Assembly: GCF_003226535.1 (NCBI RefSeq)
Contig: NZ_QKOB01000006.1
Location: 55,136-87,135, forward strand
Length of the DNA stretch: 32,000 nt
Direction: 5' to 3'
From: Meiothermus sp. Pnk-1
GTDB taxonomy: Bacteria; Deinococcota; Deinococci; Deinococcales; Thermaceae
In this document: positions 3,137 to 17,393 of the stretch, piece after piece
How positions within the stretch are numbered: the first letter of the stretch is position 1
How the letters are laid out: every line of letters starts with the position of its first letter
The notes under the pieces: generated by a model
Seen by the model: the letters and a program-made list of their open reading frames with translations, nothing else
Told to the model about the DNA's origin: nothing
Database searches by the model: none
Program-made: the position numbers and the translations under genes

Positions 3137-3696
3137 CCGATCACCACCAGCACGCCCAAAGCCCCCCCGCCGAGCAGGGAGGCCACCCGGCCCGCCCACC
3201 CCCAGCGCAGGCCCCGCCGGGGCATCCCCAGGACCACCAAGCCCTGCCGCCGGGCCTCGCGCAAGAAGGCCTGGCTCGAGTACAGCCCGCCCTGGGCCGC
3301 CACCCCGGCCCTGCGGGCCCCCTCGAGCGGGCCCTCCAGCGACTGCCAGGCCCGCTCCCGGGCCGCCCGCCACAGGCTTGGGGAGAAGTAGGGGCCCTCC
3401 AGGTACCCCGCTTCGGGCGGCCCCTCGACCCAGGCCAAGGTCAGCGGTAGGCCCTGCTGCCGCGCCAGCCAGATCCCCTCCTGCGCCGCCCGGAGGCTGA
3501 GGGGCGGGCCCAACCGGACCAGCACCCCTCGGGCCTCCTGAAAGTCTGCGCCCGGGGCGAGGAGCAACGCGGGCCGTTGCAGGCGAGATACCCGCGCCCA
3601 GGCCGCGAGGCTCCCCCCGGGCAGCAGGGCGATTCCCCGCGCCCGCAGGGCGGGCTCGAGGCGGGGCTCAGGGGGAAGGGCCAGCGCCATAGCCAA
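3133..3696 (-). CDS. hypothetical protein with a C-terminal membrane anchor, translationally coupled to the histidine kinase
   Basis: 187-aa ORF ending in the hydrophobic stretch LLGGGALGVLVVIG. ATGA overlap with the kinase start. No motif recognised. The start is TTG 3696 or ATG 3690. Confidence 0.45.
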   Translation of the reverse strand: MAMALALPPEPRLEPALRARGIALLPGGSLAAWARVSRLQRPALLLAPGADFQEARGVLVRLGPPLSLRAAQEGIWLARQQGLPLTLAWVEGPPEAGYLEGPYFSPSLWRAARERAWQSLEGPLEGARRAGVAAQGGLYSSQAFLREARRQGLVVLGMPRRGLRWGWAGRVASLLGGGALGVLVVIG

Positions 3697-3754
3697 GGTC
3701 TCTGCTCATCCTGCGCGGCTACCGGGGTGTGGCCCAGCGGTCAAACGGCCCCGC

Positions 3755-3778
3755 GGGGTCGGTCACCTGACCGATCCC
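3755..3778. promoter_or_regulatory. palindromic operator-like site in the divergent intergenic region upstream of the kdp operon
   Basis: Perfect TCGGTCA-CC-TGACCGA at 3759-3774. With one mismatch it extends to GGGG...CCC over 3755-3778. It lies between the divergent starts at 3696 (-) and 3843 (+). Confidence 0.35.
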
Positions 3779-3842
3779 GGTCGCCAAACGGCGGCTGCCT
3801 CATGAGGAAGAGGGGGTCTAGGCTGGGCGCTGGAGGTGTGAG

Positions 3843-3935
3843 GTGTCGCCGATAGAGTACGCCGTGGTGGGCTTCATCGCCCTGGCGCTCATGGTCTACT
3901 TGGTTTACGTGATCGTTTCCCCCAAGAGGTTCTGA
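3843..3935 (+). CDS. kdpF: KdpF-like 30-aa membrane peptide (absent from the ORF track)
   Basis: GTG start 5 nt after GGAGG. It translates to [30 protein letters not shown]. The C-terminal YLVYxxxxPxxF resembles E. coli KdpF ...GYLVYALINAEAF. The TGA lies 1 nt before the kdpB ATG. Confidence 0.7.
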
Positions 3936-3936
3936 C

Positions 3937-6000
3937 ATGTCCCTGCCCAAAGCTCAGCGGCCGCGCAACCTGGCGCGCGCAAAAGGCCTGTTTGACCCCG
4001 AGCTGTCTCGCCAGGCCCTGGTGGAGGCCTTCCGCAAGCTGGACCCGCGGCGGATAGTAAACAACCCGGTGATGTTCGTGGTGGAAGTAGGGACGGCGCT
4101 GGTGCTGTACTTCACCCTGCGCTCGGCCCTCACCCGCTCCCCCGACCTCGGCTACCAGGCCGCGGTGTTCCTCTTGCTCCTCCTCACCCTGCTCTTCGCC
4201 AACTTCGCCGAAGGGCTGGCCGAGGCCCGCGGGCGGGCCCAGGCCCAGAGCCTGCGCTCGGCCCGCGCCGACCTCAGGGCCCGGCGGATTACCGAAACCG
4301 GGATGGAGGAGGTGGCCAGTACTGCCTTACGGCGCGGGGACCGGGTACGGGTGAAAGAGGGGGAGTTCATCCCCGCCGACGGCGAGGTGGTGGAGGGATT
4401 GGCGGTGGTGGACGAGTCGGCCATCACGGGAGAGTCGGCGCCGGTAGTGCGCGAAGCGGGCAGCGACTTCAACGGGGTGACCGCGGGGACCCGGGTGCTC
4501 ACCGGTGAGATCGTGGTGGAGGTGACCTCCAACCCCGGCGAGAGCTTTCTCGACCGCATGATCGCCCTGGTCGAGGGGGCCAGCCGGCAAAAGACCCCCA
4601 ACGAGATTGCCCTCACCATCCTGCTGGCCGCGCTCACGGCGGTGTTTCTCATCGTCAGCGCCACGCTGCTTCCCTTCAGCCTCTACGCCGGCCAAGGAGT
4701 GGGCCTTACGACCCTGGTCGCCCTCCTGGTCTGCCTGATCCCCACCACCATCGGCGGGCTGCTCTCGGCCATCGGGATTGCCGGGATGGACCGGGCCCTC
4801 AGGGCCAACGTGGTGGCCAAATCCGGCAAGGCGGTGGAGGTCGCGGGGGATGTGGACACCCTGCTCTTGGACAAAACCGGCACCATCACCCTGGGCGATC
4901 GCCAGGCTACCGAGTTCCACCCGGTGGCCGGGGTCTCCCCGGAGCGGCTGGCCTGGGCGGCCCTGGCGGCCTCGCTCCACGACACCACCCCCGAGGGCAA
5001 GAGCATCGTGCGGCTGGCCCGCGAGAGGGGAGCCCGGGTGGAAGAAGCCCTCGCCGCGGGCTCTAAGGGCCTCGAGTTCACCGCCCAAACCCGCATGTCC
5101 GGCACCGATCTGCCGGGGGGGGTGCGGCTGCGCAAGGGCTCCCCCGACCGCATGATGGAGCTGGTGGCGCAAGCGGGAAACAAGGTCCCTCCCGACCTCA
5201 CCCCCTTGGTGGAAGAGGTCGCCCGACAGGGGGCCACCCCGCTGGTGGTGTGCGAGAACGATCAGGCCCTGGGGGTGGTGGCCCTTTCGGATGTGGTCAA
5301 GCCGGGGATCCGCGAGCGCTTCGCCCAGCTCCGGCGCATGGGCTTACGCACGGTGATGGTCACCGGCGACAACCCCCTCACCGCCCGGGCCATCGCCGAG
5401 GAGGCGGGGGTGGATGAGTTCGTGGCCCAGGCCAAGCCGGAGGACAAGCTCCGGCTCATCCGCGAGGAGCAGGCCAAGGGCCGCTTGGTGGCGATGATGG
5501 GCGACGGCACCAACGACGCCCCGGCGCTGGCCCAGGCCGACGTGGGGCTGGCCATGAACTCCGGTACCCAGGCCGCTAAAGAGGCGGCCAACATGATCGA
5601 CCTGGACTCCGACCCCACCAAGCTATTGGAGGTCGTCGAGATCGGCAAGCAGCTCCTGATCACCCGCGGGGCGCTCACCACCTTCTCCGTGGCCAACGAC
5701 GTGGCCAAGTTTTTCGCCATCATCCCGGCGCTGTTCGTAACCTCCTACCCCGAGCTGCAAAGCCTCAACGTGATGCACCTGGCCACGCCGCAGAGCGCCA
5801 TCCTCTCGGCGGTGATCTTCAACGCGATCATTATCCCCCTGCTCATCCCGCTGGCCCTGCGGGGGGTGCGCTACCAGCCGCTGGGAGCCAATGCGCTGTT
5901 GCAGCGCAACCTGCTGATCTACGGCCTGGGGGGGCTGGTGGCCCCCTTCATAGGGATCAAGCTGATCGACCTGGCCCTGAAGGCGCTGGGATGGGGGTAG
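3937..6000 (+). CDS. kdpB: K+-transporting P-type ATPase subunit B
   Basis: 687 aa with the DKTGTIT phosphorylation motif, [10 protein letters not shown] and [12 protein letters not shown]. The N-terminus is KdpB-like ([20 protein letters not shown]). Confidence 0.95.
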
Positions 6001-8415: not shown

Positions 8416-9528
8416 GTGGAACCGGCAGCCCCCGACCCAGAGCAGCTGCTCGAGGCCATCCTGAAAAGCGGCCGGGGCCGCCACAAGATCTACGTGGGGG
8501 CCGCCGCCGGGGTGGGCAAGACCTACCGGGCCTTGCAGGAGCTGCGCGAGCGCCTGGAGGCCGGGGTGGACGCGGTGGTGGGCTACCTGGAGACCCACGG
8601 GCGCCCCGACACCGCCCGCATGGCCGAGGGGTTGCCGGTCTTTCCGCGCAAACAGGTGGAGTACAAGGGGGTGGTCCTGCCGGAGATGGACCTGGAGGGG
8701 CTGCTCGCGCGCCGCCCGGCGCTGGTGCTGGTGGACGAGCTGGCCCATACCAACGCCCCCGGCTCCAAGAACGCCAAGCGCTACCAGGACGTGGAGGAAC
8801 TCTTGCAGGCGGGGATCAGCGTGATCTCCACCATGAACATCCAGCACCTGGAGTCCTTGAACGACCTGGTGGCCCGCCTCACCGGGGTGCGGGTGAAGGA
8901 GCGGGTCCCCGACCGGGTGCTCCTGGAGGCCGACGAGGTGATCCTGGTGGACGTGACCCCGGAGGTGCTCCAGGAGCGGCTCCGGGCGGGCAAGATCTAC
9001 CCCAAGGCCAAGATCGAGCAGGCCCTGGCCAACTTCTTCACCGCGGAGAACCTGGCCGTGCTGCGCGAGCTGGCCCTGCGCAGCGTGGCCGACAAGGTGG
9101 AGGAAGACGCCTCGGTGGGGGAGGACTCCCCGGCCCTCAAGGAGCGCATCGCGGTGGCGGTGACCCCCAGCCCCAAAGACGCCCTGCTCATCCGCCGCGG
9201 GGCCCGCATGGCCCAGCGGATGCGCGGCGAGCTGCACGTGGTGCACGTGAGAAACCGCCGCCTCTCGCGGGAGGAGGAGCGGGCGCTGGACAGCCACCGC
9301 ATCATCGCCGAGAGCCTCGAGGGGCGCTTTCATCGCCTCGAGGGCCGCGACGTGGCCCGGGCCCTGGCGGAGTTTGCCAAGGAATACGGCATCACCCAGC
9401 TGGTCTTGGGGGAGAACTCCAACCCCACTTGGCGCGACTTCTTCCGCATCTCCATCATCCAGCGGCTGATCTACCTCACCCACGATATCGACATCCATAT
9501 CATGGACCGGCGCCCCGAGGAATCCTAA
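8416..9528 (+). CDS. kdpD: kinase-less KdpD (KdpD N-terminal sensor domain plus Usp domain only)
   Basis: 370 aa. Walker-like GAAAGVGKTY, LVLVDELAHTNAPGS and ISTMNIQHLESLND match the KdpD N-terminal domain, followed by a Usp-like segment. There are no membrane spans and no HisKA or HATPase_c region. GTG start follows AGGAG. Confidence 0.85.
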   Translation: MEPAAPDPEQLLEAILKSGRGRHKIYVGAAAGVGKTYRALQELRERLEAGVDAVVGYLETHGRPDTARMAEGLPVFPRKQVEYKGVVLPEMDLEGLLARRPALVLVDELAHTNAPGSKNAKRYQDVEELLQAGISVISTMNIQHLESLNDLVARLTGVRVKERVPDRVLLEADEVILVDVTPEVLQERLRAGKIYPKAKIEQALANFFTAENLAVLRELALRSVADKVEEDASVGEDSPALKERIAVAVTPSPKDALLIRRGARMAQRMRGELHVVHVRNRRLSREEERALDSHRIIAESLEGRFHRLEGRDVARALAEFAKEYGITQLVLGENSNPTWRDFFRISIIQRLIYLTHDIDIHIMDRRPEES

Positions 9529-9560
9529 CGGCAGCCCGGCGACAAAGGGGATGCGATAGA

Positions 9561-9585
9561 CATCCTAAGTTATTTGTCAAGCCTC
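9561..9585. repeat. left att-like direct repeat (attL candidate)
   Basis: CATCCTAAGTTATTTGTCAAGCCTC aligns with 16036-16059 (CATCCTGAGAAATGTGTAAGACTC) at 19 of 24 columns with one 1-nt gap. Confidence 0.6.
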
Positions 9586-9594
9586 ATTTACAAC

Positions 9595-10503
9595 TCACCT
9601 AACACACACAGCCCACGCCGCGCGTGCTAAACGATGCGCCACTGCAACCAGGGCTAGCTTTTTAGGCTTGCCCGAGTCCACAAGGCGGCGATACAAAGCA
9701 GCTTGTACGGAGTCGGTACGGGTCGCGGCTGTCGCTGCGAGGTAGTAGCTAGCGCGGAGCATGGGCGGGCCAATGCGGGAGATACGGGCGCTAGCGTCCA
9801 TCTCTCCAGATTGGTAGATGCGCGGAGTAAGCCCGGTGTAAGCCGCGTACGCCCTCGCCGAGTGGAAGCGCCGCAGATCGCCCGAGTAGGCCAAGAGCTT
9901 TAGCGCGAGGGTGGGGCCAATGCCCGGCAGGGTTTGCAGGGCTGAAACCCACGAAGCAGCTAGTGGATATGCCGCAACAATGGCTCGTGCCTCAGCGTAC
10001 AGGGCAGCGCGTAACGACTGAATCGAATCAGGCACAGACAACGCAAACTCATGCACATGTGGGTGGGCGTAGCGCCAAGCGTGCAAGCGGTTGAGAGAGG
10101 CTGTGCGCTGCGTGTTCAGACCCTCGGCAAATCTGACCAGGAGCGAGGCCAGGTACAACGCCTCAGGCAACGGCTCATAAGGTGTGAGATCGGCTCGATA
10201 TTGAGCCAGAAAGCGGGCGAGTAGGCGAGCGTCCGCCTTATCGGTCTTATTGCGGGTGAGGAGTGATCTAGCGTAAGCCCGAACCTGCAAAGGGTTGACA
10301 ACGTAAACTGCGAACCCGGCCCGGTGTAAGGCGTAGGCCAAAGGCCGATAGTAGACCCCGGTAGCCTCCATCAGGACAGCCGCATCAGCAGGCAATCGTG
10401 AAACTAGCGCAGCTATGCCGTCATACGTGTTTGGAAACTGTAGCAACTCATCTGCTATAGCTACGTCCAAGCGAGAGCGGGAGATGTCAACGCCAACAAA
10501 CAT
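9595..10503 (-). CDS. IS110-family transposase (DEDD RuvC-like domain plus C-terminal Tnp domain)
   Basis: 302 aa. MFVGVDIS (Asp), VLMEATGVYY (Glu), NKTDKADARLLA (Asp, Asp), C-terminal LPGIGPTLALKLL and YQSGE (conserved Ser). Confidence 0.9.
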   Translation of the reverse strand: MFVGVDISRSRLDVAIADELLQFPNTYDGIAALVSRLPADAAVLMEATGVYYRPLAYALHRAGFAVYVVNPLQVRAYARSLLTRNKTDKADARLLARFLAQYRADLTPYEPLPEALYLASLLVRFAEGLNTQRTASLNRLHAWRYAHPHVHEFALSVPDSIQSLRAALYAEARAIVAAYPLAASWVSALQTLPGIGPTLALKLLAYSGDLRRFHSARAYAAYTGLTPRIYQSGEMDASARISRIGPPMLRASYYLAATAATRTDSVQAALYRRLVDSGKPKKLALVAVAHRLARAAWAVCVR

Positions 10504-10554
10504 AAGTAGGGCGCGGGAGCCCTACGGCACTCTTACACGCGACCAAAAAGGCCA

Positions 10555-10563
10555 ACATCCTAA
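10555..10563. repeat. internal copy of the att core (ACATCCTAA)
   Basis: Exact 9-mer shared with 9560-9568. It starts 52 nt upstream of the transposase ATG. AGGCCAA precedes it and recurs at 10602-10608. Confidence 0.5.
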
Positions 10564-10606
10564 ACGCCCATAGGCTAGGCCACGCTATCGCACGACCACG
10601 CAGGCC

Positions 10607-10617
10607 AAGACTCTTGA
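10607..10617. repeat. 11-mer identical to the host flank next to asnS
   Basis: AAGACTCTTGA at 10607-10617 equals 16053-16063 exactly and is in the same orientation. Confidence 0.5.
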
Positions 10618-10642
10618 CGACCAAACCCGCGCCCAGCACAGA

Positions 10643-10873
10643 CTAACGCCTGTATCCCCTAGGACGCAACTTGGGTTGATAGGGGCAGGGGCCAGAATAG
10701 CGACAGATGCGCCGCCCCTCACGCAGAGCAGCCACCTCAAGGGTATTCAGAGGCTCACGGCAACGAGTACAGCGAACACGGGTATCAGGTTGCAGGGAGC
10801 GCCCAGGGCCAGCTAGAGAGCGAATCATCCAGCCTATCCAGAGGATCACCAGCAGGAGCAGGAGCAGGCTCAC
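10643..10873 (-). CDS. small membrane protein (pXI-like anchor?) with a Cys-rich tail, overlapping the zot 3' end in the +1 frame
   Basis: GTG-initiated 76-aa ORF. It has an N-terminal membrane span SLLLLLLVILWIGWMI followed by CxxC...Cx5C. It overlaps zot by 89 nt. No clear RBS. Confidence 0.4.
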   Translation of the reverse strand: MSLLLLLLVILWIGWMIRSLAGPGRSLQPDTRVRCTRCREPLNTLEVAALREGRRICRYSGPCPYQPKLRPRGYRR

Positions 10874-11714
10874 ACGGAGATTCTAACCGCTCACGCAGCA
10901 GATCATGCGGTTGTTTGCCCTCACGGTAGGCACTCGCTAGGTCGGAGATGGAGAGATGAGGCATCCCATCCCGAGGCCCCGGAGCATCACGACGGCCCCG
11001 GAGCTTGGATGCGTCCCAGGCTAGGCCCATCCGGTCAAAGATGGCCCGCTTTTTCGGGTCTAGCTCACGCTGGAGCCGGACTATAGGCGGCTCAAAAATC
11101 GCGTATGTGTCGTAACACGCCGCCGCCATCGGATCGAGGGCCACAACGTCATTACGCGCTACGCCCTCGAAGATGCCCTTGGCCTGACGTTGCATCATGC
11201 CGATGGACTCATCCATGATGGACGTGTAGCGCAGAAGTTTCCGCCCGCGCACCCAGGGATACGTAATCACGCGGAGCCAGAACGGAGCCGGACGCGCCCA
11301 GAAGACGAAGGCTACCAGATCGCGCACAATCGCATCCACCGAGCCGTAGCGCTGTGTAGCTAGCAGCACGTCCACGCCTGTCTTGCGATGCTGGCTCCAG
11401 AACGCGATGACCTCGACCGGGATTAGGTCAAACTGACGCGAGGGAAGCCACATATGGGCCTCGTCAAACAGTAGCAGGCCATCATGGACGTTGAGCAGTT
11501 CGTTATAGTCCCGTATCTCCCGGATACTATCAGCCCTCAGAACCGCTTCCCGATGATCCAACTTGGCGCGGAAACGAAGCCAGTAATAGACATTTTCCCT
11601 AATAAAGCCGAAATTGGCCCATACGGTACGCCCCCGAGCCAAGGCGTGAAGGCCGCGATGGACGAGCATGTAACTCTTTCCAGAGCCGGGAATGCCGATG
11701 TACGCCTCGATCAT
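10785..11714 (-). CDS. zot: Zot / pI-like inovirus assembly ATPase
   Basis: Walker A GIPGSGKS at the N-terminus, Walker B LLLFDEAH and QHRKTGVDVLLATQ (Zot-family pattern). ATGA overlap with the upstream gene. No membrane span in this frame. Confidence 0.85.
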   Translation of the reverse strand: MIEAYIGIPGSGKSYMLVHRGLHALARGRTVWANFGFIRENVYYWLRFRAKLDHREAVLRADSIREIRDYNELLNVHDGLLLFDEAHMWLPSRQFDLIPVEVIAFWSQHRKTGVDVLLATQRYGSVDAIVRDLVAFVFWARPAPFWLRVITYPWVRGRKLLRYTSIMDESIGMMQRQAKGIFEGVARNDVVALDPMAAACYDTYAIFEPPIVRLQRELDPKKRAIFDRMGLAWDASKLRGRRDAPGPRDGMPHLSISDLASAYREGKQPHDLLRERLESPCEPAPAPAGDPLDRLDDSLSSWPWALPAT

Positions 11715-12139
11715 CTACCCCCCCTGATAAAGGTGATGGCTCGCCAGAGTGCCATGAGCCCGTAAAATCCCGCCCAGGCCGAGCCGAGCGTAAGGGCCTC
11801 ACTGATCGGCAGTATTTGGTTAGCCGTGTTGAAGGCCCCTATAGCAGTAGAGGCCCAACCAGGCGGGTCGGGGGGCATAGCCGGGAGCAGGCCAACTAGG
11901 ATACTGAGGAAGCCAGTAACCAGCTTGACCACGCCCGCGATAAGCCAGCCGATGAGCCCTAGGCCCCATTCCAACAACTGATGCAGGAGCCCTAGACCCC
12001 AGTTCAAGACGGCAAGGACAAGCCCCCAGACCCAGCCCCAGACCGTTTGAACGATGCCAACGAACCAGCCCGTCAGGGCGGAGAACGTGCCCTGGAACCA
12101 ATCGAGGATTGAGCGGAGTGCGTTTAGGATTATCTGCAT
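11711..12139 (-). CDS. pVI-like polytopic minor coat/assembly protein
   Basis: 142 aa, Trp/Gly/Leu-rich with several membrane spans. It lies immediately upstream of zot and is coupled to it, the position held by gene VI or DUF2523-type genes in inoviruses. Confidence 0.6.
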   Translation of the reverse strand: MQIILNALRSILDWFQGTFSALTGWFVGIVQTVWGWVWGLVLAVLNWGLGLLHQLLEWGLGLIGWLIAGVVKLVTGFLSILVGLLPAMPPDPPGWASTAIGAFNTANQILPISEALTLGSAWAGFYGLMALWRAITFIRGGR

Positions 12140-12152
12140 ATCTCCCCCCTAC

Positions 12153-12357
12153 TCACATGCTCATTCGCCCGCTGCGCGAGAGTGTACGGTGAGGCCCCGG
12201 CCTACGCGCAAGGGTCCGCTTCGCCGCGCCCGCATGTCCAAACCCCGGCTTCCTGCGTGCAGTAAACGTGCGTGATGTGGTGCAGCGTGCGCGCCCTTGC
12301 GCTACGGCCACCCCACCGGATAAGGATTGTTGCAGCGGGCGAAAAAATAGCATGTGA
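12153..12357. repeat. long imperfect inverted repeat filling the pIII-like / pVI-like intergenic region
   Basis: TCACATGCT (12153-61) pairs with AGCATGTGA (12349-57). TCGCCCGCTGC (12165-75) pairs with GCAGCGGGCGA (12332-42). GCGCAAGGG (12206-14) pairs with CCCTTGCGC (12294-302). The arm spacings are similar. Confidence 0.6.
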
Positions 12358-13812
12358 TTAGCGCTGTACATCCAACCCCCGGCGCACGATGGTAAATCCG
12401 AACGTCAGCAAGAGCCCGCCCAGCATGAAGGGGCGTAGTTGCGTTGCGGCTTGCCAGACGGGATTGCCGCAGATGTTGACGGTAGCCGACCACTGACCGA
12501 TTGTTAGCTGAGGAGCCGGACAGCCCCCGCTATCGCTGGTGGACGGAGTACGGAGCCAGCGCACGACACCAAACGGAAACTTGTCCATAGCTTGCTGCTT
12601 GAGTTGCTCTATGGACTCTCGCATAGACTGCATAGCCTGATCCCACGGCGTTTGCTGTAGCTGCGGAGCCTGGAACTGAGGCAATGTGGGATCATTGGGC
12701 TTTTGCAGACCCGGCAGGGAAGGAGTGCCCGGAGGCCCCGGCCACGTCAGATCATCCTTAGGTTGCTCATTCGTACACTTCGAGGCTGGATCACGCGGAT
12801 CCGAGCCGCAGCGTAACTCTTGATCATCCGGAAAGCCGTCCCCGTCGGAATCCGTGCCGGGATCTTTCCCAGGCTTAGAGTTAGGATCATAAGGATCCGT
12901 CCCCGCCTGCTTTTCCTCCTGATTCGTGTATCCGTCCCCGTCGTCGTCCCGATTCGGATCAGGATGGGAGTTAGGATCATTGATCCCGTCAGGCCAAGGG
13001 CGCTGTTTCTCCATCCAGTCAGGCCAGCCGTCGCCGTCGGTATCCACTGACTTATCGGTATACGGATTATCCGTCCATTGATTCGGATTAGGCACAGGAT
13101 CGAGGCGCACCCCAGGATAGGGATTAGACGGAGAGCCGGGCGGCGTGTCCTGAATGTAGCGAGCGACAGCCGCTTTGACTCCCTCAGCCGCGTCGGGATG
13201 CGACTGCAAAAACTCCGGGAGCGTCTCTGGCGGATGCTTAGGCATCGTTGACTTTTCGACGCGCTCGACTCCATCAGGATAATGCAGCTTAGCGTTGCGT
13301 TGCCACTCGTAGCGATAGCCATATTGGGACTTCAGATACTGCTCGCACTGCAACAAGAGTTGCTCCTGAGTCCCGCCGGGGCCGCGAAACGAATGAGTAT
13401 AGGGCGGATCAGTGGAGCGCACGTAAGGGGTTGCCCCCAGAACAGAACAGCGAACCTCGCCCATTTGCCAATCATAATCAGGAGGGATGTACTGAACTCC
13501 GACTATGACGGCTTCCCAGTCATAGAGTAAATGTGACGCCCACGCGTCCAACGACGTCCCAGTTTGCTGCTTGAGGGACTCGTAAAAATAGTTAAGGGCT
13601 GTATAAATAAGCGTAGATCCTAGGATTATTGCGCCGCCCCAGCGCACATAGCGCCCGAACGTTGCCTGTTTAGCGAACTGATTGTTACTCCACTGCAAAA
13701 TCTCGTTATACGTCATCCCCTGCACAGTAGTCCTAACAACATCCTGCACAGGAGCCGCGAACGAAAAGGCCCCGGCGACCAGGGCCAGGGCCAAGAATCG
13801 CCGGAGCCGCAT
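12358..13812 (-). CDS. pIII-like adsorption/minor coat protein with thrombospondin type-3 (Ca-binding) repeats
   Basis: The start is moved to ATG 13812, giving signal peptide MRLRRFLALALVAGAFSFA. Three DxDxDGxxDxxE repeats are present (DTDGDGWPDWME, DDDGDGYTNQEE, DSDGDGFPDDQE). A C-terminal hydrophobic anchor (FMLGGLLLTFGFTIV) is followed by RRG. It sits directly after the coat gene. Confidence 0.65.
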   Translation of the reverse strand: MRLRRFLALALVAGAFSFAAPVQDVVRTTVQGMTYNEILQWSNNQFAKQATFGRYVRWGGAIILGSTLIYTALNYFYESLKQQTGTSLDAWASHLLYDWEAVIVGVQYIPPDYDWQMGEVRCSVLGATPYVRSTDPPYTHSFRGPGGTQEQLLLQCEQYLKSQYGYRYEWQRNAKLHYPDGVERVEKSTMPKHPPETLPEFLQSHPDAAEGVKAAVARYIQDTPPGSPSNPYPGVRLDPVPNPNQWTDNPYTDKSVDTDGDGWPDWMEKQRPWPDGINDPNSHPDPNRDDDGDGYTNQEEKQAGTDPYDPNSKPGKDPGTDSDGDGFPDDQELRCGSDPRDPASKCTNEQPKDDLTWPGPPGTPSLPGLQKPNDPTLPQFQAPQLQQTPWDQAMQSMRESIEQLKQQAMDKFPFGVVRWLRTPSTSDSGGCPAPQLTIGQWSATVNICGNPVWQAATQLRPFMLGGLLLTFGFTIVRRGLDVQR

Positions 13813-13826
13813 AGAAGCCCCCCGGA

Positions 13827-14048
13827 TTAGCCCTTGAGGAACTTCTTGGCGTAGCGCCAAGCCGCGCTGAGGCCGATAGTGAGCGCGAGCACGCCCACGC
13901 CAGCAGCAGCGATGCCGCCGATGTAGGTCATGACGCCCGTAGCGACCTGCCCAGCATTGAAGCTGGCATCTTCAGCAAACGCCCCAGCTAGCACGAGAGG
14001 AGCAGCCAAGGCAACCGAACGACCGACAAACACGCGCAGTTTCTCCAT
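13827..14048 (-). CDS. inovirus major coat protein (pVIII-like)
   Basis: 73 aa. Signal peptide ...LVLAGAFA | EDASFNAGQ, then an acidic mature N-terminus, a hydrophobic core and a basic C-terminus (RYAKKFLKG). GGAGGTG RBS. Confidence 0.8.
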   Translation of the reverse strand: MEKLRVFVGRSVALAAPLVLAGAFAEDASFNAGQVATGVMTYIGGIAAAGVGVLALTIGLSAAWRYAKKFLKG

Positions 14049-14080
14049 AGAACACCTCCATTGCCCACGGGCGATGCCCG

Positions 14081-14182
14081 TTAGAGCCTACGTAACACGG
14101 AGCGCAGGACCGAGGCCACCAGGCCAGCCCCTAGCCCCCACCAGAAGGCCTCAGCGATAAAGCGCCAGTCACCCGCAGTCAT
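14081..14182 (-). CDS. 33-aa hydrophobic peptide (pVII/pIX-like minor coat candidate; absent from the ORF track)
   Basis: MTAGDWRFIAEAFWWGLGAGLVASVLRSVLRRL. ATGA overlap with the upstream mini-ORF. Confidence 0.5.
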   Translation of the reverse strand: MTAGDWRFIAEAFWWGLGAGLVASVLRSVLRRL

Positions 14183-14283
14183 ACACGCCTAAACAGATTG
14201 CCGCCGTAGCGATACGCGGCTAAAAACGCGTAGGGAGCCGTGACCAACGCGAGAACCTTGAGGAACCAATCGAAAGGCTCCAT
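14179..14283 (-). CDS. 34-aa hydrophobic peptide (pVII/pIX-like minor coat candidate; absent from the ORF track)
   Basis: MEPFDWFLKVLALVTAPYAFLAAYRYGGNLFRRV. TAATG overlap with the upstream mini-ORF. Confidence 0.5.
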   Translation of the reverse strand: MEPFDWFLKVLALVTAPYAFLAAYRYGGNLFRRV

Positions 14284-14375
14284 TAGAAATCCCCCGCGAG
14301 AAGTCCCGCAATCATGCCGAGTCCGAAGGCCCAGACCTTGAAGCACTCGATCATGAAGACGGGATCAAGGGTCAT
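14283..14375 (-). CDS. 30-aa hydrophobic peptide (pVII/pIX-like minor coat candidate; absent from the ORF track)
   Basis: MTLDPVFMIECFKVWAFGLGMIAGLLAGDF. TAATG overlap with the stop of the 96-aa ORF. Confidence 0.5.
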   Translation of the reverse strand: MTLDPVFMIECFKVWAFGLGMIAGLLAGDF

Positions 14376-14665
14376 TAGGCTTTCTCCTTTACCGGAGCAA
14401 GTGGAGCCACAAACCGTGCCACCGTGACGAATTGTCGCGCGCTGTTTTTCTCGCGGAACCCATCCCTGACGCGCAAATCAATTTGCAGGTCATAGAGGCC
14501 CGGAAACGTGGGCATAGTCGCCACTACATCAGGATCCGCGTCAAGTTCAAGCACGTTCATCCCGCGGAACTCCGCATCCGTGGGCGTAGTGGCTACTAAA
14601 ACCTTGCCAAACCTGCGCCCATCCTTAGCCGTCCTAGCGCTTGCTCCAAGTACCATTAGGGTCAT
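14375..14665 (-). CDS. putative ssDNA-binding protein (gene V-like), assigned by position and size only
   Basis: 96-aa ORF with an AGGAGGA RBS, directly downstream of rep as in Ff phages. No motif recognised. Confidence 0.35.
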   Translation of the reverse strand: MTLMVLGASARTAKDGRRFGKVLVATTPTDAEFRGMNVLELDADPDVVATMPTFPGLYDLQIDLRVRDGFREKNSARQFVTVARFVAPLAPVKEKA

Positions 14666-14710
14666 ATATCCTCCTATATCGCGTTAGAAGTGCCGATAGG
14701 CACGCGATAC

Positions 14711-15394
14711 CTACACAACAGCCCCCGCGTAGCGATGGAACGCCCGAGAGTAGGACTCCCGGAACCGCGCCTTATCCAGTACCGGCAAATCCTCGGGAGC
14801 CAAACCGACTAAATAGCGAACACGCCGGAGCCACGCCAGGAGCACAGACGGTGTAGGGGCGTGATGATGCAGGCCGAGCGACGCAGCAGCGGAAACGATG
14901 CAACCGATGGCCTGAGTCAACAACTGAGGAACACTAGCCAACGGCGAGCGAGCACAACGGACTACCTGAGCAGTCCCCGAGGAGTCGGGAGCGTCAAAGG
15001 CAGACAACACAAGTCGCCAGAGAGGATCAAACGGACGATTGCGGATTGTTTGAGTGTCCGAATCCTCACGCAGAGAGAGCCAAGAGCCCGCCAAATAGCG
15101 CCAGATAGCCGGGAGATGTTCCGCGAGGGTGTACCAGTTGCGCAGATCGCCCGCCCCTACATCCATAGTTGACAGAGCATCCGCCCTAATCTGGAACTCG
15201 ACGCGGATCACGTGCCCGCTGGGGTTGCCGTAGCCCGCAAGAGTGAGCTTAGCGCCGTAATCCGTGCGCGCCTGTATCGTCTTCGAGTAGATACGTGCTA
15301 GCAAATCGCCGGAGCCGAAACGAAACCCGGACCAGTTAGGCCCCCGGTAGTGAACCTCAACAGGGTGTACCTCATAGGCGGGTACCTCGTGCAT
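14711..15394 (-). CDS. rolling-circle replication initiator (Rep_trans-like), C-terminal part of a split gene
   Basis: Contains GDLLARIYSKT, resembling the catalytic-Tyr R-I-Y-x-K motif of pT181 RepC / RstA-type initiators. Deleting one 11-bp repeat copy joins it to 15298-16038. Confidence 0.6.
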   Translation of the reverse strand: MHEVPAYEVHPVEVHYRGPNWSGFRFGSGDLLARIYSKTIQARTDYGAKLTLAGYGNPSGHVIRVEFQIRADALSTMDVGAGDLRNWYTLAEHLPAIWRYLAGSWLSLREDSDTQTIRNRPFDPLWRLVLSAFDAPDSSGTAQVVRCARSPLASVPQLLTQAIGCIVSAAASLGLHHHAPTPSVLLAWLRRVRYLVGLAPEDLPVLDKARFRESYSRAFHRYAGAVV

Positions 15395-16038
15395 AGCGAC
15401 CCCCGTGTTACCCCCGTGTTACCCGTAAGGGGGTCGCCGTGGCTGCCCCCACGGCTGGCCGCTGGCGCGCCCAGCGCGTGGGAGCCATCCAGGTAGACCG
15501 ACCGCGAGCGAGCCCGCGAAACGAAACGCCCTAGGTCATCCAGGCTGAGGGGTGTATCCACCTCGACATCCGCAAACAAGTCAATACGCGACACTTGGAC
15601 GCGCTCAGGCTCAACTCCGACAAGATAGCTGAGGGTATCGGAAAACATAGCAACCACAGCCATAGGGTCACGGGCGCAAGCCGCCATGTATCGACCCGAT
15701 ACTTCCACGTAGGCGTGTACCTGTCCGGGTTTACAGGTAGTGGGCCGAGGCTGAGTGAGGGAGATCGAGAACATGCCCCCTTGAAACATCAACATCCAGC
15801 GGAACTTTCGCCCAGGCCGTACCTGTGCCACCTCGTAGGCGCAGCGCTCGTCATCATCCCCTAGAGGATTCCAAAGCCACATGTAATCGTGAATCCCGAG
15901 AAAGTGAGCATCCCCCTCTTCCCGGTACTCGTCTAGCGCCGCATCCAATCGCGCGGTGAAGTCCTCGGGAAGGCGGTAGTTTTGGCCCCAGGAAAGCCAG
16001 AAGATAAAGGTGTCTGTTCCGCTGGCTAATAGCTTCAT
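15298..16038 (-). CDS. rolling-circle replication initiator (Rep_trans-like), N-terminal part of a split gene
   Basis: Contains VSRIDLFADVEV (R-x-D-L-A-x-D-type motif). After the 11-bp duplication the frame runs on for about 40 out-of-frame codons. Confidence 0.6.
   Translation of the reverse strand: MKLLASGTDTFIFWLSWGQNYRLPEDFTARLDAALDEYREEGDAHFLGIHDYMWLWNPLGDDDERCAYEVAQVRPGRKFRWMLMFQGGMFSISLTQPRPTTCKPGQVHAYVEVSGRYMAACARDPMAVVAMFSDTLSYLVGVEPERVQVSRIDLFADVEVDTPLSLDDLGRFVSRARSRSVYLDGSHALGAPAASRGGSHGDPLTGNTGVTRGSLCTRYPPMRYTLLRFTTGGLTGPGFVSAPAIC
15400..15421. repeat. perfect 11-bp tandem duplication (CCCCCGTGTTA x2) inside rep
   Basis: Read directly at 15400-15410 and 15411-15421. It lies in the loop of the hairpin GCGACCCCC (15396-404) / GGGGGTCGC (15429-437). 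Confidence 0.9.
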
Positions 16039-16059
16039 CCTGAGAAATGTGTAAGACTC
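16036..16059. repeat. right att-like direct repeat (attR candidate)
   Basis: CATCCTGAGAAATGTGTAAGACTC. Its first three bases are the complement of the rep ATG. Confidence 0.6.
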
Positions 16060-16067
16060 TTGAAGGT

Positions 16068-17393
16068 ATGCGACGGGTGTTCATCGAGGAGATCAGCCAG
16101 CACCAAGGACAGGAAGTGCTCATCCGCGGCTGGGTTACGGGACGGCGCAGCAAGGGCAAGATCCACTTCCTCACCCTGCGTGACGGGACCGGCTTCCTCC
16201 AGGCCACGGTGTTCAAAGGAGAACTTCCCGACGAAGAGTTCGAGCAGGCCGACCACCTGCCCCAGGAGGCCGCCCTCGAGGTGGCGGGGCTGGTGCGCTC
16301 CGACCCGCGCGCTCCAGGAGGCTTCGAGCTTTCGGTCAGGAGCCTGAAGGTCATCAGCCTGCCCAGCCGGGAATACCCCATCACCCCCAAGGAGCACGGG
16401 GTGGACTTTTTGATGGATCACCGCCATCTCTACTTGCGCCACCGCCGCCCTTGGGCCGTGCTACGGATACGCGACGAGCTCGAGCGGGCCATCCACGACT
16501 TCTTCCACGCGCGGGGCTTCATTCGCCTCGACGCTCCCATCCTCACCCCCAACGCCGTCGAGGGCACCACCGACCTCTTCGAGGTGGACCTCTTCGACGG
16601 GGAAAAGGCGTATCTCTCGCAATCGGGGCAGCTCTACGCCGAGGCCGGGGCCATGGCCTTCGGCAAGGTCTACACCTTCGGCCCCACCTTCCGCGCCGAG
16701 CGGAGCAAAACCCGCCGCCACCTGCTGGAGTTCTGGATGATCGAGCCCGAGGTGGCCTTCATGACCCACGAGGAGAACATGCAGCTCCAGGAGGAGCTGG
16801 TGGCCTATCTGGTGGGGCGGGTGCTGGAGGAGAAGAAGCTCGAGCTGCAGGTGCTCGAGCGCGACACCACCGTGCTGGAGAGGAGCGCGCAGGGGGGCTA
16901 CCCCCGTATCCACTACTCCAAAGCCGTGGAGATGGTGAATAAGATCGCCCAGGAGCGACCCGAACTGGGGCTCGAGCCCCTGCCGTGGGGCGACGACTTC
17001 GGCGCCCCCCACGAGGCCGCCCTGAGCAGCCAGTTCGACCGCCCGATCTTCGTCGAGAAGTACCCCGCGGCGGTAAAGGCCTTCTACATGCAGCCCGACC
17101 CGGAGGACCCCCGGCTGGTCCTGAACGCCGACATGCTCGCCCCGGAGGGGGTGGGCGAGATCATCGGCGGCAGCCAGCGCATCCACGACCCCGAGCTGCT
17201 GCGGCAGAAGATCCGCGAGCACGGCCTGCCCGAGGAGGTCTTCGACTGGTACATGGACCTGCGGCTCTTCGGCACGGTGCCTCACTCAGGCTTCGGGATC
17301 GGCCTCGAGCGCACCGTGCGCTGGATTTGCGGCATCGAGCACATCCGCGAGGCCATCCCCTTCCCCCGGATGTACACCCGGATGCGGCCTTAG
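16068..17393 (+). CDS. asnS: asparagine--tRNA ligase
   Basis: Class II aaRS motifs are present ([35 protein letters not shown]). The start is set at [10 protein letters not shown] (16068) by resemblance to Thermus AsnRS as remembered. The track ORF begins at 16047. Confidence 0.93.

What the first reader, a model, noticed from the sequence alone, without database searches (positions are those of the whole stretch)
9539..16063. Three copies of a CATCCT att core split the island into a ~1-kb recombinase module and a ~5.5-kb phage module
Seen directly:
- Left repeat L (9561-9585) and right repeat R (16036-16059) align at 19 of 24 positions with one gap.
- An exact 9-mer, ACATCCTAA, occurs at 9560-9568 (L) and again at internal site M (10555-10563), starting 52 nt upstream of the transposase ATG.
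- An exact 11-mer, AAGACTCTTGA, occurs at 10607-10617 and in the host flank at 16053-16063.
- The sequence left of M (GCGACCAAAAAGG, 10539-51) resembles the host sequence left of L (GCGACAAAGGGG, 9539-50).
- The complement of the core is AGGATG, and at R that ATG is the rep start codon.

The pattern has the form host-core-[recombinase]-core-[phage]-core-host. That form is expected for two elements with attB-like sites integrated in tandem at one site (compare CTX/RS1/TLC arrays). It is equally expected for one composite unit.
Basis: seen in the sequence. Interest (0 to 1): 0.85.

Follow-up and report, generated by a model that had tools for sequence, protein, structure and literature searches.

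The report
Filamentous prophage with its own bridge RNA
The repeats are not three attachment cores: they are the guide segments of a small phage-encoded "bridge" RNA that matches both the host insertion site and the phage's own joining site, so this filamentous prophage most likely integrates by RNA-guided recombination with an IS110-type enzyme.

Summary

- **True boundaries.** Two Meiothermus contigs with an identical kdpD carry the empty site ...GATGCGATAGACTCTTGAAGGTATG. The insertion is therefore 9562-16057 (6,496 bp), flanked by AGAC.
- **One unit.** The island is a single inovirus-like prophage (gII-V-VIII-III-VI-zot) ending in an IS110-family DEDD recombinase. The cultured Thermus phages phiOH16, Zuza8 and Zuza27 have the same layout.
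- **Site M and the 11-mer.** Both lie inside a 126-nt structured RNA gene (10634-10509, minus strand) between zot and the recombinase. The RNA has two internal loops, and its four loop strands match the target and the donor:
  - target left half plus core, 10/10;
  - target right half plus core, 8/8;
  - donor left, 9/9;
  - donor right, 8/8.
  The order and strand pattern are those of the IS621 bridge RNA, with a CT core.
- **Relatives.** The scaffold is conserved with compensatory changes. The guides differ between elements and track each element's own junctions: RT 35/35 and LD 48/49.

Verdict: a phage-borne bridge-RNA integration module, a new variant of a known kind. Expression and activity are untested.

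The parts
9562..16057 (-). Whole inserted element: inovirus-like prophage plus IS110-family recombinase, 6,496 bp counting one copy of the AGAC overlap.
   Evidence: The empty site in L001/L002 reads ...GATGCGATAGAC|TCTTGAAGGTATG, compared with the occupied junctions. GC falls from about 0.70 (left flank) and 0.65 (right flank) to about 0.58 inside the element.
9558..9561 (-). RE-side junction overlap AGAC (GTCT on the element strand). The CT core is 9559-9558.
   Evidence: These four nt are shared by the empty site and both junctions. All relatives have CT at this place.
16054..16057 (-). LE-side junction overlap AGAC (GTCT on the element strand). The CT core is 16055-16054.
   Evidence: Same evidence as the RE-side overlap. 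The junction reads TCAAGAGTCT|TACACATTTCTCAGGATG on the element strand.
9552..9557 (-). Host right-target half-site (RT), ATCGCA on the element strand.
   Evidence: It is complementary to RTG UGCGAU(AG).
16058..16063 (-). Host left-target half-site (LT), TCAAGA on the element strand, followed by GTCT.
   Evidence: It has the same sense as LTG UCAAGAGUCU, 10/10.
9595..10503 (-). IS110-family DEDD recombinase, 302 aa.
   Evidence: Pfam PF01548 (2.6e-23) plus PF02371 (9.9e-23); PHROG 2199 transposase. D6 (>=90% conserved), E46, D88, D91 and S232 (invariant) are conserved across 29 relatives.
10509..10634 (-). Predicted bridge RNA, 126 nt measured from the 5' to the 3' strand of the closing stem.
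   Evidence: RNAalifold gives a consensus with two 10+10-nt internal loops. The covariance model scores 130 bits here and hits 38 places in relatives. 95.8% of cells are paired and 16 pairs show compensatory change.
10608..10617 (-). Left target guide (LTG), UCAAGAGUCU, on the 5' strand of loop 1.
   Evidence: Identical to the element-strand sequence of LT plus core in the empty site.
10585..10592 (-). Right target guide (RTG), UGCGAUAG, on the 3' strand of loop 1.
   Evidence: Reverse complement of core plus RT, CTATCGCA. Across relatives RT tracks RTG 35/35.
10554..10564 (-). Left donor guide (LDG), UUUAGGAUGUU, on the 5' strand of loop 2.
   Evidence: Same sense as the element's RE end, TTAGGATGT(C). 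Across relatives LD tracks LDG 48/49.
10530..10539 (-). Right donor guide (RDG), CGUGUAAGAG, on the 3' strand of loop 2.
   Evidence: GUGUAAGA is the reverse complement of TCTTACAC at the element's LE end, 16048-16055.
10640..10669 (-). Candidate promoter of the bridge RNA: TTGCGT, 18-nt spacer, TAGTCT.
   Evidence: Read from the sequence. A TAnnnT box sits at the same place in relatives (TAGAAT, TAATCT). The strict consensus scan did not call it.
9575..9580 (-). TTGACA -35 box at the RE end, 17 nt before the -10-like RD.
   Evidence: CTTGACAA lies just 3' of the recombinase stop in most relatives. In circular phiOH16 it forms TTGACA-18-TACAAT, 11 of 12.
16048..16053 (-). TACACA: the right donor half-site, which doubles as the -10-like box of the circle-junction promoter in front of gII.
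   Evidence: Reconstructed circle: TTGACA-17-TACACA, then AGGATG, the gII start. This is inference.
14711..16038 (-). gII replication endonuclease, split into two ORFs (15298-16038 and 14711-15394) by an 11-nt tandem duplication at 15400-15421.
   Evidence: PHROG 33635 profile positions 1-204 and 217-396 fall in two frames. tblastn of the L087 and phiOH16 gII shows a frame switch. L087 has a single copy of the 11-mer.
14375..14665 (-). gV-like ssDNA-binding protein, 96 aa.
   Evidence: PHROG 38435. It holds the same position as gene V of phiOH16.
13827..14048 (-). Major coat protein (gVIII-like), 73 aa.
   Evidence: PHROG 33753. The homologue in L086 has a weak Phage_Coat_B hit.
12358..13860 (-). 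Adsorption protein (gIII-like), up to 500 aa, with TSP3 repeats.
   Evidence: Pfam PF18884; PHROG 36046, 1e-98.
11711..12139 (-). Minor coat protein (gVI-like), 142 aa.
   Evidence: PHROG 37052.
10785..11714 (-). Zot/pI-type assembly ATPase, 309 aa.
   Evidence: Pfam PF05707; PHROG 20922, 4.6e-137.
10643..10873 (-). Small ORF of 76 aa with a Cys motif (CxxC...CxxxxxC). Its stop codon lies inside the bridge-RNA -10 box.
   Evidence: ORF list. The sequence is conserved in most relatives. No Pfam or PHROG hit.

Best explanation
The island is one element: a 6.5-kb temperate filamentous phage of the Thermus phiOH16/Zuza lineage, integrated in a Meiothermus chromosome 11 nt upstream of the asnS start codon. 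Its integration module is an IS110-family recombinase plus a phage-encoded bridge RNA.

**The RNA.** It is about 126 nt (10634-10509, minus strand) and folds into two stem-enclosed internal loops.
- Loop 1 carries UCAAGAGUCU on its 5' strand. [quoted passage not shown] Its 3' strand carries UGCGAUAG, which pairs with the top strand.
- Together these specify the 16-nt host target TCAAGAGT-CT-ATCGCA.
- Loop 2 carries UUAGGAUGU and GUGUAAGA. These specify the phage's own joining site, TTAGGATGT-CT-TACAC, which exists only in the circular replicative form, between the recombinase stop codon and the gII start codon.

**The reaction.** The recombinase, holding the RNA, exchanges strands at the shared CT. 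The whole circle is inserted and both junctions end up with GTCT.

**What is shown.** The boundaries; the gene content; the RNA scaffold with covariation; and guide-to-junction complementarity here and in relatives.

**What is inferred.**
- That the RNA is transcribed, from TTGCGT-18-TAGTCT.
- That the recombinase uses it.
- That a promoter spanning the donor core (TTGACA in the right end, TACAxx in the left end) drives gII only in the circle, so that integration silences replication.

This copy also has a frameshifted gII and may be unable to replicate.
For: **Boundaries.** The empty site sits in two contigs with an identical KdpD.

**Gene content.** Pfam and PHROG assign Zot, gII, coat proteins and the IS110 recombinase. 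The circular genomes of phiOH16, Zuza8 and Zuza27 have the same gene order.

**Guides in the window.**
- Four matches of 10, 8, 9 and 8 nt fall in the order LTG, RTG, LDG, RDG.
- The two 5' loop strands have the same sense as the DNA and the two 3' loop strands are antisense. This is the pattern described for IS621 (PMC11208160; PMC11208158).

**Structure.**
- RNAalifold, run without that model, predicts two 10+10-nt internal loops, each closed by an outer stem and an inner hairpin.
- The covariance model finds the RNA next to 38 related recombinase genes.
- 95.8% of cells are paired, 16 pairs have double changes, 0 of 500 shuffles reach the observed values, and slid controls pair at 37-54%.

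**Guides in relatives.**
- Loop sequences are hypervariable while stems are constant.
- In seven proviruses at different loci, the five variable RT bases match the element's own RTG 35/35. Only the identity permutation out of 5040 reaches this.
- LD matches LDG 48/49.
- In inverted-donor proviruses, LT matches LTG 8-9 of 9 in five of seven.
- L097 and L106 sit at the same host locus, which differs by one base, and their RTGs differ at the matching base.

**Promoter.** The circle junction of phiOH16 carries TTGACA-18-TACAAT.
Against: - There is no transcript or activity evidence of any kind.
- The strict sigma-70 scan finds no promoter for the RNA in the window.
- The minimum-free-energy fold of the single sequence keeps the closing stem and the loop-2 hairpin but not loop 1. 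Its z-score is only -2.6; for the longer 287-nt stretch it is 0.09.
- The LDG reaches the core C only through a U-G wobble.
- Several relatives match imperfectly: L096 LT 5/9, L104 LT 6/9, L143 RT 4/6, and the L093 left junction has three extra bases.
- The alignment used for pair counts was fitted to the model.
- Rfam holds no family that matches this RNA, so there is no external model to compare with.
- gII is frameshifted, so this particular copy may be a dead remnant.
Confidence: 0.85

Rival explanations
1. First reader's model. CATCCT is an att core present three times, so the island is either two tandem elements (a 1-kb recombinase element plus a 5.5-kb phage) or a composite bounded and divided by att sites.
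For: CATCCT is present at 9561, 10556 and 16036. L and R align 19 of 24.
Against: - The empty site puts the right boundary at 16054-16057, and the shared overlap is AGAC, not CATCCT.
- CATCCT occurs 24 times in the window.
- M lies inside a conserved structured RNA. Its sequence changes between relatives in step with their own right ends.
- A 995-bp unit from 9569 to 10554 would leave only 52 nt upstream of the recombinase gene and would exclude the guides that match the host site.
- The recombinase and the phage genes form one circular genome in cultured phages.
Confidence: 0.02
2. An ordinary IS110-family insertion sequence, with its own bridge RNA, landed beside an unrelated filamentous prophage that had integrated by some other route such as host XerCD or its own Rep. 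The association would be accidental.
For: IS110 elements are common, and the RNA-plus-recombinase pair is contiguous (10634-9595).
Against: - The target guides match host DNA on both outer sides of the whole 6.5-kb unit. One half-site is at 9552-9561 and the other at 16054-16063.
- The donor guides match the two outer ends of the 6.5-kb unit, not the ends of a 1.1-kb unit.
- Every relative recovered with enough flank has zot immediately upstream of the RNA.
- No second copy is in the window.
Confidence: 0.03
3. The conserved structure is a 5' leader or attenuator of the recombinase mRNA, or a transcription terminator of the phage operon. On this view the matches to the junctions are by-products of recombination history rather than guides.
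For: A terminator-like hairpin with a T-rich tail ends the structure at 10525-10506. The structure lies directly upstream of the recombinase start codon.
Against: - A leader would not need four loop segments that co-vary with host DNA at unrelated loci in a fixed strand pattern.
- In the distant clade the RNA is convergent with the recombinase gene, so it cannot be its leader there.
Confidence: 0.05

Closest known systems
IS621 / IS110-group bridge RNA recombination (Durrant et al. 2024, PMC11208160; Hiraizumi et al. 2024, PMC11208158)
   Same: - DEDD-plus-Ser recombinase.
- One non-coding RNA with a target-binding loop followed by a donor-binding loop.
- The 5' loop strands (9-10 nt) have the same sense as the left half-sites plus core.
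- The 3' loop strands (7-8 nt) are antisense to core plus right half-sites.
- CT core.
- The donor exists only in the circular form.
- A -35 box in the right end and a -10 box in the left end span the donor core.
   Different: - The mobilised DNA is a complete 6.5-kb virus, not a ~1.3-kb insertion sequence.
- The RNA gene is not next to the donor core. It is separated from it by the recombinase gene on one side and by 5.4 kb of phage genes on the other.
- The RNA appears to have its own promoter.
- The circle-junction promoter faces the phage replication gene instead of the RNA.
- The RNA is shorter (about 126 nt against 177 nt). It lacks the 5' stem-loop, and both loops are enclosed by one closing stem.
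- Related phages carry the donor site in either orientation, and one clade has the recombinase gene inverted.
Thermus filamentous phages phiOH16, Zuza8 and Zuza27 (Thomixvirus; PMC11437467)
   Same: - Gene order and size.
- Recombinase 57-59% identical.
- gII 38% identical.
- The same RNA scaffold, at 126-131 bits.
- The paper already proposes that the IS110-family transposase mediates integration, and notes proviruses with the endonuclease gene at one end and the transposase gene at the other.
   Different: - That paper does not mention a guide RNA. Its only text hit for 'bridge' is an author surname.
- The window element is in Meiothermus and belongs to a sub-clade with Calidithermus timidus (82% identity).
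- It has its own target and donor guides.
- Its donor is in the direct orientation, whereas Zuza8 and Zuza27 have it inverted.
Neisseria filamentous prophages Nf / MDA phage with a Piv-like IS110-family transposase (Kawai et al. 2005, cited in PMC11437467; PMC7058167)
   Same: A filamentous phage carries an IS110-family recombinase gene at one end of the provirus, and that recombinase is thought to integrate it.
   Different: The Neisseria phages are unrelated. They are reported to integrate into a repeated chromosomal sequence (my recollection; not checked here). I did not examine them for a guide RNA.
CTX / RS1 / TLC arrays in Vibrio
   Same: Filamentous phages integrated site-specifically.
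   Different: Those phages use host XerCD at dif and form tandem arrays. Here the element encodes its own recombinase, there is a single copy, and the internal 'core' is part of an RNA gene.

Membership tests
IS110-family bridge-RNA recombination system | Recombinase with an N-terminal DEDD RuvC-like domain and a C-terminal Tnp domain carrying the catalytic Ser. | tested here: met
   PF01548 and PF02371 score above their cut-offs. D6 (>=90% conserved), E46, D88, D91 and S232 (invariant) are conserved across 29 relatives. Equating these positions with IS621 D11/E60/D102/D105/S241 is inference by order, not by a structural alignment.
IS110-family bridge-RNA recombination system | Non-coding RNA with two internal loops flanked by conserved stems. 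| tested here: met
   RNAalifold consensus. Compensatory changes in 16 of 29 pairs, 95.8% of cells paired, and both controls far lower.
IS110-family bridge-RNA recombination system | [quoted passage not shown] | tested here: met
   The window matches the empty site 10/10 and 8/8. In relatives RT matches 35/35, and LT matches 8-10 of 9-10 in most.
IS110-family bridge-RNA recombination system | The loop-2 strands pair in the same way with the donor formed by joining the element's ends. | tested here: met
   The window matches 9/9 (plus a U-G wobble at the core C) and 8/8. In relatives LD matches 48/49. The donors are intact in circular phiOH16 and Zuza8.
IS110-family bridge-RNA recombination system | A short core shared by donor and target, CT in IS621. 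| tested here: met
   GTCT is present at both junctions and in the empty site. In all 38 aligned RNAs the RTG and RDG loop strands carry AG at the core position.
IS110-family bridge-RNA recombination system | In the IS110 group, the RNA is encoded in the left end next to the donor core and is transcribed from a promoter rebuilt at the circle junction. | tested here: not met
   The RNA lies about 0.95 kb from the core across the recombinase gene and 5.4 kb from it across the phage genes. The junction promoter faces gII.
IS110-family bridge-RNA recombination system | The RNA is expressed, binds the recombinase, and is required for recombination. | not testable with these tools
   No expression or biochemical data are available.
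Filamentous phage (Tubulavirales, phiOH16-like) | Zot/pI assembly ATPase, rolling-circle Rep (gII), small coat proteins and an adsorption protein, all on one strand of a ~6-7-kb genome. | tested here: met
   with collinearity to phiOH16, Zuza8 and Zuza27. gII is frameshifted in this copy.
XerCD/dif-type tandem phage array (CTX/RS1/TLC) | Integration at a dif-like site by host XerCD, with repeated att sites between tandem units. | tested here: not met
   The overlap at the junctions is only 4 nt and is not CATCCT. The element encodes its own recombinase. The internal site lies inside an RNA gene. There is a single unit. I did not run a dif motif search.

The most novel reading that the evidence does not exclude
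A lineage of temperate filamentous phages of the Thermaceae has taken a bridge-RNA recombinase as its integrase. On this reading:
- the attB specificity of a virus is written in about 16 nt of RNA and is rewritten by point mutation;
- related phages therefore occupy many different chromosomal sites, and their guides even follow single-base differences between hosts;
- the recombination core sits inside the promoter of the replication gene, so integration itself switches replication off without a repressor.

This would be a natural case of bridge recombination moving a multi-kilobase, self-replicating cargo. The RNA gene would be uncoupled from the donor site and free to sit in either orientation.
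Probability: 0.6. Interest if true: 0.75.

Novelty: new variant of a known kind. Interest (0 to 1): 0.66.

Why it matters
Bridge RNAs have so far been described as parts of small insertion sequences and developed as editing tools. In the open-access library I could search, no paper links them to a virus. That includes the paper on the closest cultured phages and a 2026 review.

If the reading is right, three things follow.

- **Mechanism.** It explains how these phages, and possibly other filamentous phages with IS110-type genes, choose their integration sites.
- **Host and site prediction.** attB can be predicted from the phage sequence alone. On the bRNA-strand sense, the predictions are phiOH16 TCCAGTATA-CT-TTCCCA, Zuza8 TGGGGTAAG-CT-TTGGGA and Zuza27 TTGGGTAAA-CT-CAAGGA.
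- **Tools.** It offers compact, thermostable, naturally trans-acting bridge systems that already move 6.5 kb.

For genome annotation there is a practical caution. Short repeats between an element's interior and its flanks can be guide segments of an RNA rather than extra att sites.

Tried and rejected
- **Rfam.** The whole window at gathering thresholds and the 401-nt region at E<=10 gave no hit. No curated family is available for comparison.
- **First fold.** Folding the 287-nt gap on its own gave z = 0.09 and a misleading structure. Structure emerged only from the alignment.
- **Species-representative genomes.** None was useful for covariation.
- **Exact look-ups.** The window recombinase, P0023 and P0028 were not on record.
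- **Search for a circle junction.** The near-identical element L142 ends one base after the core (GTCTA). That agrees with the integrated form but is not decisive.
- **Handshake guides.**
  - In the Thermus clade, the two bases 3' of the RTG (AC) would pair with the donor's GT, as in IS621.
  - In the window's clade (CG) and for the donor loop the rule does not hold.
  - I make no claim here.
- **GCGAC...GG resemblance.** Rejected as a host-like flank. The internal copy is the loop-2 hairpin.
- **L/R similarity.**
  - I considered it as terminal repeats.
  - In the circle it becomes an imperfect tandem repeat around the core: 16/20 here and 13/20 in L087 and L090.
  - It overlaps the -35/-10-like boxes and the gII ribosome-binding site.
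  - It is not needed by the model and remains unexplained.

Full report
**1. Observation**

- ACATCCTAA occurs only at 9560 and 10555.
- AAGACTCTTGA occurs only at 10607 and 16053.
- L and R align at 19 of 24 positions with one gap.
- The CAT at 16036-16038 is the reverse complement of the start codon of the first phage gene.
- The hexamer CATCCT is common: 20 copies on the + strand and 4 on the - strand.

**2. What the island is**

Pfam gives an IS110-family DEDD recombinase (9595-10503, minus strand; PF01548 plus PF02371) and a Zot-type assembly ATPase (10785-11714).

PHROGs assigns every other large ORF to families of small filamentous phages:
- replication endonuclease, in two pieces;
- a gV-sized protein;
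- major coat protein;
- adsorption protein;
- gVI-like protein.

GC falls from about 0.70 (left flank) and 0.65 (right flank) to about 0.58 inside the island. The host is an unclassified Meiothermus.

**3. True boundaries**

The exact KdpD protein of the window is also encoded on two other contigs, L001 (GCA_004152925.1) and L002. There kdpD is followed 43 nt later by asnS.
- Their intergenic sequence is ...GGCGACAAAGGGGATGCGATAGACTCTTGAAGGTATGCGACGGG.
- Compared with the window, the insertion is 9562-16057 (6,496 bp).
- AGAC is present at both junctions, at 9558-9561 and 16054-16057.
- CATCCT is therefore not the crossover sequence.
- The 11-mer at 16053-16063 is one element base, plus the AGAC overlap, plus six host bases.

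**4. Relatives**

The recombinase has a clade of relatives in the Thermaceae.
- The closest named relative is from Calidithermus timidus, at 82% identity.
- The clade includes the cultured filamentous Thermus phages phiOH16, Zuza8 and Zuza27, at 57-59% identity.
- Their circular genomes of 6.5-6.8 kb run recombinase, gII, V, VII, IX, VIII, III, VI, assembly protein, then a 130-280-nt gap back to the recombinase.
- Proviruses with the same order sit at different chromosomal loci in C. timidus, several Thermus species and metagenomes.

The paper describing Zuza8 and Zuza27 notes the IS110-family gene. By analogy with Neisseria Nf phages, it proposes that this gene mediates integration. It does not mention a guide RNA (PMC11437467).

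**5. The repeats are RNA guides**

I read the sequence on the recombinase strand. The stretch between the small ORF after zot and the recombinase ATG reads as follows:

GGGCGCGGG-UUUGGUCG-[UCAAGAGUCU]-UGGCC..GGUCG-[UGCGAUAG]-CGUGGCC...GGGCG-[UUUAGGAUGUU]-GGCC..GGUCG-[CGUGUAAGAG]-UGCC...CCCGCGCCC

On the same strand:
- the empty site is CCTTCAAGAGTCTATCGCATC;
- the reconstructed circle junction is ...CAAATAACTTAGGATGTCTTACACATTTCTCAGGATG.

The four bracketed segments relate to these as follows:

| Segment | Relation | Match |
|---|---|---|
| 1 (LTG) | same sense as left target half plus core | 10/10 |
| 2 (RTG) | reverse complement of core plus right target half, CTATCGCA | 8/8 |
| 3 (LDG) | same sense as the element's right end, TTAGGATGT, then a U opposite the core C | 9/9 plus wobble |
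| 4 (RDG) | reverse complement of TCTTACAC at the element's left end | 8/8 |

Durrant et al. describe exactly this for IS621 (PMC11208160; PMC11208158):
- the target loop comes first and the donor loop second;
- the 5' strand of each loop pairs with the bottom strand over 8-9 nt;
- the 3' strand of each loop pairs with the top strand over 4-7 nt;
- all four pairings include the CT core.

Its 11-mer is the left target guide. Its 'host-like' GCGACCAAAAAGG is the hairpin of the donor loop.

I shuffled the 142-nt region. This reproduced the individual matches in 2, 116, 17 and 53 of 2000 trials, before any requirement for order, strand or position.

**6. Structure**

- An alignment of ten such regions was folded by RNAalifold with no prior structure.
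  - The result has a closing stem and a short connecting stem.
  - It also has two modules, each with an outer stem, a 10+10-nt internal loop and an inner hairpin.
- A covariance model built from this alignment scores 130 bits in the window and finds one copy beside each related recombinase gene, 38 hits in all.
- On the resulting alignment of 27 distinct sequences:
  - 95.8% of cells pair, against 82.5% in shuffles and 37-54% when partners are slid;
  - 16 of 29 pairs show changes on both sides;
  - no shuffle out of 500 reaches any measure.
- Two caveats apply. This alignment was fitted to the model. The single-sequence fold is only modestly stable (z = -2.6) and does not reproduce loop 1.

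**7. Guides co-vary with junctions**

Stems are constant and loop strands are hypervariable. The target loop varies more than the donor loop, as reported for IS621.
- In seven proviruses at seven sites, the five variable bases next to the core on the recombinase side match the element's own right target guide 35 of 35. Off-diagonal pairs match 1-4 of 5, and only 1 of 5040 permutations reaches the diagonal.
- The seven variable bases of the right end match the element's own left donor guide 48 of 49.
- Left junctions match the left target guide:
  - window 10/10;
  - C. timidus 9/10;
  - L090 8/10 plus one wobble.
- L097 and L106 lie at the same host locus. The locus reads CTAGGAC in one and CTAGGGC in the other, and their guides read GUCCUAG and GCCCUAG.
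- Imperfect cases exist:
  - L096 LT 5/9;
  - L104 LT 6/9;
  - L143 RT 4/6;
  - an irregular left junction in L093.

**8. Differences from canonical IS110 elements**

- **Position of the RNA gene.** It is not next to the donor core. In the circle the order is core, gII ... zot, RNA, recombinase, core.
- **Orientation of the donor site.** In Zuza8, Zuza27 and a group of Thermus proviruses, the donor site is inverted relative to the RNA and the recombinase. The host half-site beside the recombinase is then the left target read in reverse, matching 8-9 of 9 in five of seven cases.
- **Orientation of the recombinase gene.** In a more distant clade (about 40% identity; also zot- and gII-bearing proviruses) the recombinase gene is inverted. 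The RNA stays after zot, so the two are convergent.

These arrangements fit an RNA that acts in trans from its own promoter. The window has TTGCGT-18-TAGTCT at 10669-10640. Relatives have TAGAAT or TAATCT at the same spot. The strict scan does not call it.

**9. Promoter across the core (inference)**

- CTTGACAA follows the recombinase stop codon in most relatives.
- In circular phiOH16 it forms TTGACA-18-TACAAT, 11 of 12, ending just before gII.
- In the window's reconstructed circle it would form TTGACA-17-TACACA, followed by AGGATG, the gII start.
- The crossover point lies between the two hexamers, so integration separates them by 6.5 kb.
- IS621 likewise has its -35 box in the right end and its -10 box in the left end, but there the promoter drives the RNA.
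- Here it would make gII expression depend on circularisation. No scan found a promoter in front of gII in the integrated state.

**10. State of this copy**

gII is interrupted by an 11-nt tandem duplication (CCCCCGTGTTA twice, 15400-15421). The C. timidus homologue has one copy, and the two halves match one PHROG profile in two frames. Unless this is an assembly error, the prophage cannot make full-length Rep.

**11. Novelty**

Already known:
- bridge RNAs in IS110 elements;
- IS110-family genes in filamentous phages of Neisseria and Thermus;
- the proposal that they integrate those phages.

I did not find any description of a phage-encoded bridge RNA. Full-text searches that combined 'bridge RNA' with filamentous, inovirus, prophage or Thermus returned nothing relevant. 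The two 2024 Nature papers, an IS110 evolution preprint and a 2026 review do not mention one.

The library holds only open-access papers and preprints, so prior description elsewhere cannot be excluded.

I class this as a new variant of a known kind. It rests entirely on sequence evidence.

Noticed in passing
window 15400-15421 (within gII, 14711-16038, minus strand): An 11-nt tandem duplication (CCCCCGTGTTA twice) splits the replication endonuclease gene into two overlapping ORFs. The C. timidus homologue has a single copy. The prophage may be replication-defective, or this may be an assembly error.
   Followed up: yes
window 10643-10873 (minus strand): A 76-aa ORF with a CxxC...CxxxxxC motif overlaps the 3' end of zot and stops inside the -10 box of the RNA promoter. 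The sequence is conserved in most relatives but absent from phiOH16. It has no Pfam or PHROG hit, and it is not annotated in the phage records. It could be an accessory or regulatory factor.
   Followed up: partly
L110-L115 and L118 (e.g. L111 2371-3285 recombinase +, 3257-3406 RNA -, 3657-4529 zot -): A more distant clade of filamentous proviruses (recombinase about 40% identical) has the recombinase gene inverted relative to the phage genes. The bridge-RNA-like gene is convergent with it and overlaps its 3' end. The target-loop bases differ between members while the donor-loop bases are constant.
   Followed up: partly
L084 (Zuza8) 921-968, L085 (Zuza27) 912-969, L096, L099-L105, L107: In these phages and proviruses the donor site lies in the opposite orientation to the RNA and recombinase genes. 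The window, C. timidus and phiOH16 have it in the direct orientation.
   Followed up: yes
In the circular form it becomes an imperfect tandem repeat of about 20 nt on either side of the core: 16/20 here, and 13/20 in L087 and L090. It overlaps the -35/-10-like boxes and the gII ribosome-binding site. I have no tested explanation.
   Followed up: partly
window 16047-16070: The ORF list starts asnS at the ATG at 16047. Annotated relatives start it at the ATG at 16068 (441 aa). The insertion lies 11 nt upstream of that start and leaves the GAAGG ribosome-binding site on the asnS side, but it removes whatever lay upstream. No promoter-like site was found on the phage side. How asnS is expressed in the lysogen is open.
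   Followed up: partly
phage records OR148969-OR148983, PP511607: Twelve 'Inovirus' records (from human samples where listed) and a Dulem virus record from a lemur also encode IS110-family recombinases, about 30% identical. Phage-borne bridge systems may therefore be wider than the Thermaceae. I did not examine these for an RNA.
   Followed up: no
L103 versus L104; L099, L100 and L107: One target guide (UCCGGUAAGCU) is found at three different host flanks that share CTTACCGG. L104 sits at the L103 site although its guide reads UGGGGUAAGCU, which is two mismatches. This suggests a repeated target motif in Thermus genomes, or some tolerance of mismatches far from the core.
   Followed up: partly
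window 8416-9528: The KdpD-like gene encodes only the N-terminal KdpD/Usp part (370 aa). In L001 a separate histidine kinase and response regulator lie upstream of the kdp genes on the opposite strand.
   Followed up: no
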